The translations under genes and the position numbers were made by a program. From the NCBI RefSeq assembly GCF_963853765.1, contig NC_088861.1, forward strand, positions 19,282,001 to 19,346,000: a stretch of 64,000 nt of DNA, in the 5' to 3' direction. Positions within the stretch are counted from its first letter, which is position 1. Every line of letters starts with the position of its first letter. This stretch comes from Magallana gigas. Taxonomy: Eukaryota. This document shows, one piece after another, positions 3,993-4,478 of the stretch. Under the pieces are notes generated by a model. The model was not told the origin of the DNA. It searched no databases and saw only the letters and a list, made by a program, of their open reading frames with translations.

Positions 3993-4478
3993 TCACAATT
4001 CCATCAGCTCTAGAAGCCAGCCCCACCCTCCGTGCTCTCCCGTCCACCAAGGTTCTGACTGGTTTAGCTCTATCTTATATTCTGGCTCCTCTACACCCGC
4101 TTCTTTTTCTTCGGTCTTAGTTTTCTTTTTGCGTGAGAGCTTTTGCTTTTTAGTAGGTCTAGTTTTGTTTCGGCGCTTAGCCTCTTTTTTACCAGCACCG
4201 CCACCATTTTGTTTAGTTGATTTTACTTCCGTACCTCCTTCGTCAGCACATTCTAATACACAGGCTTGCTTGATCATCTTGCAGTCGCGAACACAGTCAA
4301 ATAACAGCTTTCTGTTCTTGGATATAGGGAATTTGCAGTCATTTGAACACTGGAAGTTCGTAGAATCACACTTGTTCAAACAAATGTCTCCCTTGGATGC
4401 AGGTTTTTTGCTTGGCGCTGACGACACTATACAGAGAATGGTGGTTACAAAGACGCTTGTTGGCGAGATGAGCTGCAT
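3993..4478 (-). CDS. Secreted 161-aa Cys-rich protein: signal peptide, CX3CX6CX3C-X13-CX3CX6CX3C domain, Lys/Arg-rich tract, acidic tract, Trp/Gly-rich tail
   Basis: Open ATG-to-TGA ORF with a hydrophobic N-terminus ending VSS|AP and a regular Cys pattern. A candidate 5'UTR splice acceptor (tgtgttgcag, AG at 4498-4497) lies 18 nt upstream of the ATG. Confidence 0.8.
   Translation of the reverse strand: MQLISPTSVFVTTILCIVSSAPSKKPASKGDICLNKCDSTNFQCSNDCKFPISKNRKLLFDCVRDCKMIKQACVLECADEGGTEVKSTKQNGGGAGKKEAKRRNKTRPTKKQKLSRKKKTKTEEKEAGVEEPEYKIELNQSEPWWTGEHGGWGWLLELMEL

What the first reader, a model, noticed from the sequence alone, without database searches (positions are those of the whole stretch)
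3993..4478. Orphan secreted protein with a four-disulfide helical-hairpin ladder and a processable basic tail
Seen: signal peptide, then C-X3-C-X6-C-X3-C-X13-C-X3-C-X6-C-X3-C. The i, i+4, i+11, i+15 spacing puts four Cys on one face of each of two helices. A Gly linker follows, then a very basic tract with dibasic sites (KR, RR, RK, KK), an acidic tract and PWWTGEHGGWGWLL. Established: nemertean neurotoxin B-IV is a helical hairpin cross-linked by four disulfides with similar spacing (CX3CX6CX2C...CX3CX6CX3C). Inference: a convergent or related fold acting as a defence peptide, pheromone or matrix protein. Only the spacing is similar; no sequence homology is claimed.
Basis: partly seen in the sequence, partly recalled or inferred. 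Interest (0 to 1): 0.7.

Follow-up and report, generated by a model that had tools for sequence, protein, structure and literature searches.

The report
Oyster accripin-type hairpin with two tails
This oyster gene is real and expressed, lies next to the shell protein gigasin-4, and is spliced into two forms with different tails; its product is likely a secreted, disulfide-stapled helical-hairpin matrix protein related to known bivalve shell proteins rather than an orphan toxin.

Summary
The ORF is real, on the minus strand (4478-3993, 161 aa), with the stated cysteine spacing. It is not an orphan. It has orthologues in Crassostrea virginica and Ostrea edulis. It closes a four-gene cluster whose nearest member is Swiss-Prot Gigasin-4. 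It shares its spacing with the published accripin/USP1 family of bivalve shell proteins. AlphaFold2 gives a two-helix hairpin (pLDDT 85.7), and the family profile's best PDB hit is neurotoxin B-IV (E 0.0076), so the fold guess holds. It is not an accripin orthologue: 0 of 8 signature residues, against 8 of 8 in a gene on another contig. The dibasic sites are at chance level and the KR/RR pair is not conserved, so 'processable tail' is unsupported. Best reading: a mantle-secreted matrix linker with a splice-switched tail charge (0.5). Against it, this gene was not found in two oyster shell-proteome lists.

The parts
5926..6054 (-). Exon 1, 5' untranslated (upper boundary approximate)
   Evidence: Loose ends of contigs in runs X3 and X12 at 4499 match window 5929 onward; GT donor and AG acceptor; the 5' end is inferred from the 126-letter loose end
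3981..4496 (-). Exon 2, long form: start codon, whole 161-aa ORF, stop 12 nt before the donor
   Evidence: Joint 3039-3981 with GT..AG ends in X21, X1, X3, X4, X12; translation
4235..4496 (-). Exon 2, short form: internal donor just after the cysteine domain
   Evidence: Joint 3039-4235 in X22, X1 and X4; donor AG|GTACGG
2728..3039 (-). Exon 3: 3' UTR in the long form; 3039-2936 encodes the 34-aa tail of the 115-aa short form; AATAAA at 2756-2751, poly(A) at about 2728
   Evidence: short form equals P0007 (C. angulata RefSeq protein)
4419..4478 (-). Predicted signal peptide, residues 1-20 (cleavage site inferred)
   Evidence: Hydropathy scan; conserved hydrophobic leader in orthologues
4248..4382 (-). 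Eight-cysteine domain, residues 33-77, predicted helical hairpin
   Evidence: 23 of 45 positions invariant across five orthologues
4116..4190 (-). Basic block, residues 97-121, long form only
   Evidence: composition kept but only 6 of 26 positions (96-121) invariant
4056..4115 (-). Acidic block, residues 122-141, long form only
   Evidence: 7 of 20 invariant
3996..4055 (-). Trp-rich hydrophobic end, residues 142-161, long form only
   Evidence: 13 of 20 invariant across five orthologues including O. edulis

Best explanation
The gene is transcribed and spliced into two mRNAs with different tails, and it likely encodes a secreted matrix protein of the mantle or shell-forming space, built on a predicted disulfide-stapled helical hairpin of the accripin/gigasin-4 type. 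Shown: transcription, two GT-AG donors, the two proteins, orthologues in three other oyster species, the gigasin-4 cluster. Predicted: the hairpin and its four disulfides. Inferred: the hairpin is a stable docking unit for other matrix proteins; the long tail stays uncut and works as a charge-patterned tether, its basic block binding acidic matrix proteins or sulfated polysaccharides and its conserved Trp-rich end sticking to hydrophobic partners or membranes; the short form swaps this for an acidic-hydrophobic tail closer to the accripin layout. Donor choice would thus switch what the same hairpin is tied to.
For: Nearest neighbour, 2.4 kb before the window, contains Swiss-Prot Gigasin-4 (P86787) letter for letter and has the same first seven cysteines. 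The C. virginica short form was named 'uncharacterized shell protein 1-like'. The domain has exactly the spacing of the oyster USP1-like gene and groups with it, a Pinctada protein and a Saccostrea repeat protein at 95/97 support. Accripin11 has this pattern, the same predicted fold, is about 12% of the soluble prism matrix of Pinna nobilis and alters calcite growth (PMC9808598). In C. nippona a USP1-like and a Gigasin-4-like gene are adult shell proteins by LC-MS/MS, mantle over gill log2FC 9.75 and 7.24 (PMC12862220 supplement). Both tails are conserved: long end 13 of 20 invariant; short tail 20 of 33 identical to C. virginica, counted by eye. Dibasic sites at chance level.
Against: All shell evidence is for relatives, none for this gene. 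Its LOC numbers are absent from the C. nippona supplement, and no gene numbered beside CNI_004922 is in that shell list; no matching name or peptide in a C. gigas shell proteome supplement or a shell-extract supplement, though these may not print peptides. 0 of 8 accripin signature residues, and no strongly acidic end (3 D/E in the last 17 against 8). Non-cysteine similarity is weak: P 0.098 to USP1-like, 0.03-0.06 to the three neighbours, clear only to the Pinctada protein (P 0.0004; 9 comparisons). The tissue of the RNA runs is not given. The same spacing occurs in very cationic, defence-like peptides of this genome.
Confidence: 0.5

Rival explanations
1. A mucosal or haemolymph defence protein: the hairpin and the polybasic tail bind microbial surfaces and the Trp-rich end inserts into membranes.
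For: Basic block with pI 12 and a conserved amphipathic end. Five tandem genes on contig C2 with this spacing encode bare domains of net charge +7 to +13. Lower PDB hits of the family profile are plant alpha-hairpinins, including the antimicrobial EcAMP1 (E 0.088). Absent from the shell lists checked.
Against: The domain has net charge only +3, is strongly conserved rather than hypervariable (37 of 45 to C. virginica), is found once by the genome search, and shares nothing beyond cysteines with the cationic cluster (z 0.3). An acidic block offsets the basic one (19 K/R against 15 D/E after the last cysteine).
Confidence: 0.2
2. A structural or adhesive extracellular protein of a tissue other than the shell field (mucus, ligament, egg or sperm coat), with the same tether mechanism.
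For: Same anatomy; not in shell proteomes checked; expression differs strongly between runs: present in X21 and X22, nearly none in X23 and X24; opposite orientation to its three neighbours.
Against: The relatives with any functional record are shell proteins. No tissue data here.
Confidence: 0.17
3. A precursor of a B-IV-like neuroactive or signalling peptide (anti-predator toxin, pheromone or hormone), released from the tail by a convertase.
For: 1VIB is the best PDB hit of the family profile (E 0.0076) and second in Foldseek (TM 0.56); one of 16 family members hits Pfam Toxin_13 at E 0.059. An N-terminal KK pair is kept in all five orthologues.
Against: The profile score carries a high composition bias (11.9 of 19.2 bits) and the fold match is not significant (E 4.8). 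The window protein has no Toxin_13 hit at E up to 1. The residues that a review reports as needed for B-IV activity (PMC6410017) are not present in cysteine register (my reading). No conserved KR/RR or RxxR after the domain, and the short form has no basic residue in its tail.
Confidence: 0.1

Closest known systems
Accripin family: accripin11 of Pinna nobilis and 'uncharacterized shell protein 1' relatives (Khurshid et al., PMC9808598)
   Same: Signal peptide, short basic N-terminus, eight cysteines in a 3,6,3,n,3,6,3 ladder (n = 12 in the paper's pattern, 13 here and in the oyster USP1-like gene), predicted antiparallel helix pair, disordered tail, pteriomorph bivalves.
   Different: 0 of 8 signature residues that could be placed (the C8 gene has 8 of 8); no Ala-rich block or Asp-rich end; instead a basic block and a Trp-rich end, or an alternative short tail; lies at another locus; not recorded in shell.
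Gigasin-4 (Swiss-Prot P86787, a fragment; its origin from C. gigas shell matrix, Marie et al. 2011, is recalled, the paper was not held)
   Same: Direct neighbour; identical spacing for cysteines 1-7 (3,6,3,13,3,6); secreted; the C. virginica member aligns at 24% over 66 aa (E 4e-05).
   Different: Eighth cysteine 8 residues on instead of 3; acidic domain with a W-x-x-C-E-Y-E-C motif; Gln-rich N-terminus; opposite strand; no long basic tail.
Neurotoxin B-IV / beta-nemertides (PDB 1VIB, Pfam PF07822)
   Same: Helical hairpin with eight cysteines; spacing 3,6,2,10,3,6,3 read; best solved-structure hit of the family profile.
   Different: Different inner spacing, no significant sequence or fold match for this protein, activity residues not shared, B-IV is a bare 55-aa peptide.
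Plant alpha-hairpinins / vicilin-buried peptides
   Same: CX3C pairs on facing helices; ranks 2-10 (E 0.088-2.5) match the inner half of the ladder.
   Different: Only the inner four cysteines align; plant origin; likeness is geometric.

Membership tests
Accripin family (PMC9808598) | Eight cysteines, C-x3-C-x6-C-x3-C-x12-C-x3-C-x6-C-x3-C (one gap allowed in the family alignment) | tested here: met
   3,6,3,13,3,6,3, identical to the oyster USP1-like gene; one residue longer than the paper's printed pattern
Accripin family (PMC9808598) | Invariant Arg after Cys1, Pro before Cys4, Arg between Cys6 and Cys7 | tested here: not met
   0 of 3 in all four orthologues tested; 3 of 3 in the three USP1-like proteins (positions mapped by me from the paper's text onto the cysteine register)
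Accripin family (PMC9808598) | Near-invariant Arg55, Leu56, Tyr64, Ala68, Asp74 (Gln61 could not be placed) | tested here: not met
   0 of 5; K and F stand in for R55 and L56; USP1-like 5, 5 and 4 of 5
Accripin family (PMC9808598) | Hydrophobic Ala-rich block followed by a highly acidic C-terminus | tested here: not met
   3 D/E in the last 17 residues in both forms against 8 in the C8 gene; short tail is net acidic (8 D/E, 0 K/R in 38 aa)
Accripin family (PMC9808598) | Two antiparallel helices held by four disulfides | tested here: inconclusive
   Two helices with a 3-residue turn, pLDDT 85.7; the tool reports no disulfide pairing
Accripin family (PMC9808598) | Signal peptide and short basic N-terminus | tested here: met
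   Hydrophobic leader and 3 K in residues 22-33; by hydropathy only
Accripin family (PMC9808598) | Presence in the shell matrix | tested here: inconclusive
   Not found by name, LOC number or peptide in three supplements; absence from lists is weak evidence
Gigasin-4 group | Cysteines 1-7 spaced 3,6,3,13-17,3,6 with the eighth 8 residues later (my definition from the three neighbours) | tested here: not met
   First seven match, eighth is 3 residues later
Gigasin-4 group | Same tandem cluster, detectable sequence similarity | tested here: met
   Four genes in 45 kb; tblastn-type hit E 0.21-0.44; BLASTP E 4e-05; non-cysteine P 0.03-0.06
Neurotoxin B-IV / beta-nemertide (PF07822) | Match to Pfam Toxin_13 | tested here: not met
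   No hit for the window protein at E up to 1; 1 of 16 family members at E 0.059
Neurotoxin B-IV / beta-nemertide (PF07822) | Helical-hairpin fold | tested here: inconclusive
   Foldseek rank 2 of 12, E 4.8, TM 0.56, rmsd 2.9; not among the 50 rows shown by the wide search, where all rows are generic hairpins at Z under 8
Neurotoxin B-IV / beta-nemertide (PF07822) | Residues reported as needed for activity | tested here: not met
   Not present in cysteine register; read by eye against passages of PMC6410017
Neurotoxin B-IV / beta-nemertide (PF07822) | Paralytic activity on crustaceans | not testable with these tools
   Needs a bioassay
Convertase-processed precursor | Conserved KR/RR or RxxR sites flanking a released peptide | tested here: not met
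   Dibasic count at shuffle level in 5 of 5 orthologues (P 0.24-0.77); KR/RR at 101-103 not conserved; no RxxR in the window protein

The most novel reading that the evidence does not exclude
Oysters use one ancient four-disulfide helical hairpin, the fold of nemertean neurotoxin B-IV, as a modular platform: at least 14 loci in this genome carry it, with Asp-rich, Pro-rich, Gln-rich, His-rich or polybasic tails or none, spanning shell matrix proteins and an undescribed set of cationic defence-like peptides. This gene has a conserved splice switch that flips the tail between polybasic-aromatic and acidic-hydrophobic, tuning matrix assembly or a shell-defence dual role. It would link shell proteins, antimicrobial peptides and ribbon-worm toxins to one lophotrochozoan ancestor.
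Probability: 0.2. Interest if true: 0.65.

Novelty: new variant of a known kind. Interest (0 to 1): 0.36.

Why it matters
The accripin family was published as seven single shell proteins, and Gigasin-4 is a 58-aa fragment with no family. This locus ties them to one scaffold and shows many more carriers in one oyster genome. A conserved splice choice between two oppositely charged tails gives a natural, testable pair for asking what the disordered tails of shell-matrix proteins do. It is a modest gain for biomineralisation and bivalve immunity, not a new mechanism; function of this gene remains unproven.

Tried and rejected
Pfam scan: nothing significant (best E 0.16). ESM Atlas, long and short forms: no usable hit. 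Genome-wide DNA pattern for the cysteine ladder: swamped by simple repeats, 133 matches against 132 in the control, uninformative. AlphaFold2 of the full 161-aa protein with 9 close sequences failed (pLDDT 37.2) and was not used. PDB sequence search with the 4-sequence profile: 0 hits. Wide structural search: only generic hairpins, best Z 7.7, no Z of 8 or more. PPP-10 is homologous to PUSP17, not PUSP1, and has 14 cysteines: unrelated. The name 'USP1' is ambiguous: the P. margaritifera entry is TIMP-like; the relevant one is the P. maxima entry. The 166-aa plus-strand ORF at 3988-4488 is taken as a shadow: no Pfam hit and stranded reads come from the minus strand. Longer database versions that run past the stop (P0006, P0038, P0131) look like TGA read as Trp by gene callers; RefSeq O. 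edulis ends at the same place as the window protein. A TATA-like and TCAGT pair at 4603-4570 that I first took for the promoter lies in intron 1; some contigs run into it (to 4551 and 4655), so retention or a second start is open. Literature searches for the gene's identifiers and for 'gigasin-4' found no relevant paper; 'accripin' only the one paper. Earlier findings of this scan: none relevant.

Full report
Observation. The coordinates hold a 161-aa ORF on the minus strand; the plus strand in that frame has stops. Cysteines 33-77 are spaced 3,6,3,13,3,6,3, after a hydrophobic leader, and are followed by a Gly linker, a basic block, an acidic block and a Trp-rich end. In 214 kb scanned in six frames the full ladder occurred four times, all within 45 kb. 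Names of near-identical public proteins place the genome among oysters of the Magallana (Crassostrea) gigas/angulata group.

Gene structure. Eight runs were laid. In the two raw-read runs with signal (X21, X22) all depth over 2701-4800 had the first mate on the plus strand, as expected for minus-strand RNA in most stranded libraries; X23 and X24 had almost none. Two GT-AG introns share the acceptor at 3039. The donor at 3981 lies 12 nt past the stop and gives the 161-aa form; so short a distance is expected to escape nonsense-mediated decay (established 50-55 nt rule, recalled). The donor at 4235 cuts just after the cysteine domain and gives a 115-aa form, equal to the C. angulata RefSeq protein. 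The long junction was seen in 5 of 8 runs, the short in 3 of 8; where both occur the long has the higher depth (7.4 against 4.2 in X1; 15.5 against 7.6 in X4). The contig runs were found with a query containing the long tail, so this is biased; the raw reads are few (3 long in X21, 2 short in X22). An untranslated first exon at 5926 to about 6054 follows from loose ends in two runs. C. virginica RefSeq holds both forms (X1 and X2 long, X3 short); for O. edulis only the long form was returned.

Conservation. Across five orthologues, invariant positions are 23 of 45 in the domain, 6 of 26 in the basic block, 7 of 20 in the acidic block and 13 of 20 in the Trp-rich end. The basic block keeps its charge (11-17 K/R) but not its sequence. 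Dibasic pairs are no more frequent than in shuffles in 5 of 5 orthologues, and the KR/RR at 101-103 is not kept. The tail therefore looks like a charged tether with a conserved binding end, not a pro-peptide. The short tail is 20 of 33 identical in C. virginica (my count), so both forms appear to be under selection.

Relatives. Three genes just before the window, on the other strand, share cysteines 1-7. The nearest contains Swiss-Prot Gigasin-4. O. edulis orthologues of the window gene and of the Pro-rich neighbour carry close LOC numbers on a contig of the same length, suggesting kept synteny. Own-genome searches with single proteins found more carriers: 14 loci with the complete pattern including this one and one with lost cysteines; these are lower bounds. 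The C8 gene is RefSeq 'uncharacterized shell protein 1-like'. A profile search of 1.84 billion representatives gave 14 hits at E up to 0.001; those that carry names are from oysters and Pinctada. A tree of 23 domains (53 columns) groups the window gene with USP1-like proteins, a Pinctada imbricata protein and a Saccostrea repeat protein at 95/97, apart from its gigasin-4 neighbours; the eighth-cysteine column may help that split. With cysteines masked, similarity is clear only to the Pinctada protein (z 3.9, P 0.0004), marginal to the neighbours (P 0.03-0.06) and USP1-like (0.098), and nil to the C2 and C4 genes; the shuffle does not keep helical periodicity, so these values are generous.

Fold. 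The full-length model failed. The 53-aa domain with a 28-sequence alignment gave two helices, pLDDT 85.7, pTM 0.61. The alignment was built on the cysteine register, and no disulfide table is given, so the ladder pairing is inferred. The family profile's best PDB hit is neurotoxin B-IV (E 0.0076), then plant alpha-hairpinins. Structure searches gave no significant match.

Known family. Khurshid et al. (PMC9808598; I read parts 1-4 of 7 of the text and search passages, not figures or supplement) define the accripin family by this cysteine pattern, a predicted four-disulfide helix pair, several Arg/Pro residues and an acidic tail, in seven pteriomorph proteins. The C8 gene meets 8 of 8 placeable signature residues, the window gene 0 of 8. 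It likely shares the scaffold but is not a member in the strict sense. In the C. nippona supplement (PMC12862220; searched rows and one part of 398) USP1-like and Gigasin-4-annotated genes are mantle-enriched adult shell proteins, but no row matches this gene's identifiers and no neighbour number appears in the shell list. Two other supplements gave nothing (PMC5854119; PMC9456362). Other papers were seen as passages only (PMC3821031, PMC7820862, PMC3893171, PMC3361287, PMC8933548, PMC6410017). The original Gigasin paper was not held. Supplements of the many oyster tissue transcriptome papers are not indexed by the paper search and may well hold expression data for this gene.

Mechanism. Most likely (0.5) a secreted matrix linker of the shell-forming mantle: a rigid hairpin for docking, and a tail chosen by splicing that binds either polyanions and hydrophobic partners (long) or mineral and cationic partners (short). 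Only the gene, its two forms and its relatives are shown; location and binding are inferred. Rivals are defence protein (0.2), matrix protein of another tissue (0.17) and B-IV-like or signalling peptide (0.1).

Verdict. A real, annotated but uncharacterised oyster gene; a new variant of the accripin/gigasin-4 kind of protein. No paper on it was found. The new points are the conserved two-tail splicing and the breadth of the scaffold in one genome. Interest 0.36.

Noticed in passing
G000:C2:59567871-59581805 (L062, L065-L068): Five tandem genes for secreted bare hairpin domains of about 45 aa, net charge +7 to +13, spacing 3,6,3,9-10,3,6,3. They look like undescribed cationic antimicrobial peptides and are the closest in layout to neurotoxin B-IV; worth their own follow-up.
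   Followed up: partly
G000:C2:38795541-38805210 (L059-L061): Three tandem genes for secreted 71-aa bare domains, spacing 3,6,3,12,3,6,3 (the exact printed accripin pattern), acidic with His-rich loops (up to 5 His in the core); two looked up are not in the protein collection by exact sequence.
   Followed up: partly
G000:C8:5870037-5870408 (L050, L069): The true oyster accripin orthologue (RefSeq USP1-like, 124 aa, 8 of 8 signature residues). Its cluster contains myosin-VIIa records, one of which includes this domain, suggesting a gene beside or inside myosin VIIa and a fused gene model.
   Followed up: partly
L003:7452-7661, L006:7777-8655, L007:9252-9590, L055:835-1767: Gigasin-4, a Pro/Ala-rich paralogue, a third paralogue, and a degenerate paralogue 160 kb away that has lost several cysteines. 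Gigasin-4 is misnamed 'transcription activator MSS11' in one record.
   Followed up: yes
G000:C4:53723627-53723776 (L064): Secreted 76-aa protein with the ladder plus one extra cysteine.
   Followed up: no
P0132, P0135 (Saccostrea cucullata): Proteins with seven and two tandem matches to the hairpin profile, showing that it acts as a repeatable domain.
   Followed up: no
window 13592-16903, 17129-18145, 58547-60034 (minus): Long ORFs that read like a LINE element (ORF1 plus endonuclease/reverse transcriptase) and a partial second copy; recognised by eye.
   Followed up: no
window 19341-21979 (minus): Two exons of a glutathione peroxidase gene (PF00255, E 2.8e-15 and 3e-4); not checked for selenocysteine.
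   Followed up: no
window 23642-28541 (plus): Duplicated coiled-coil exons and a C1q domain (PF00386, E 2.2e-10): tandem C1q-domain genes.
   Followed up: no
window 429-1183 and 6795-7296: Repeat elements with high mixed-strand read depth; reads that join 1183 back to 429 in four runs suggest a tandem or circular form.
   Followed up: no
window 5926-6082 (minus): Exon 1 holds two upstream ATGs; a TCAGT at 6052-6048 and TTTAAA about 30 nt before it fit a core promoter (seen).
   Followed up: no
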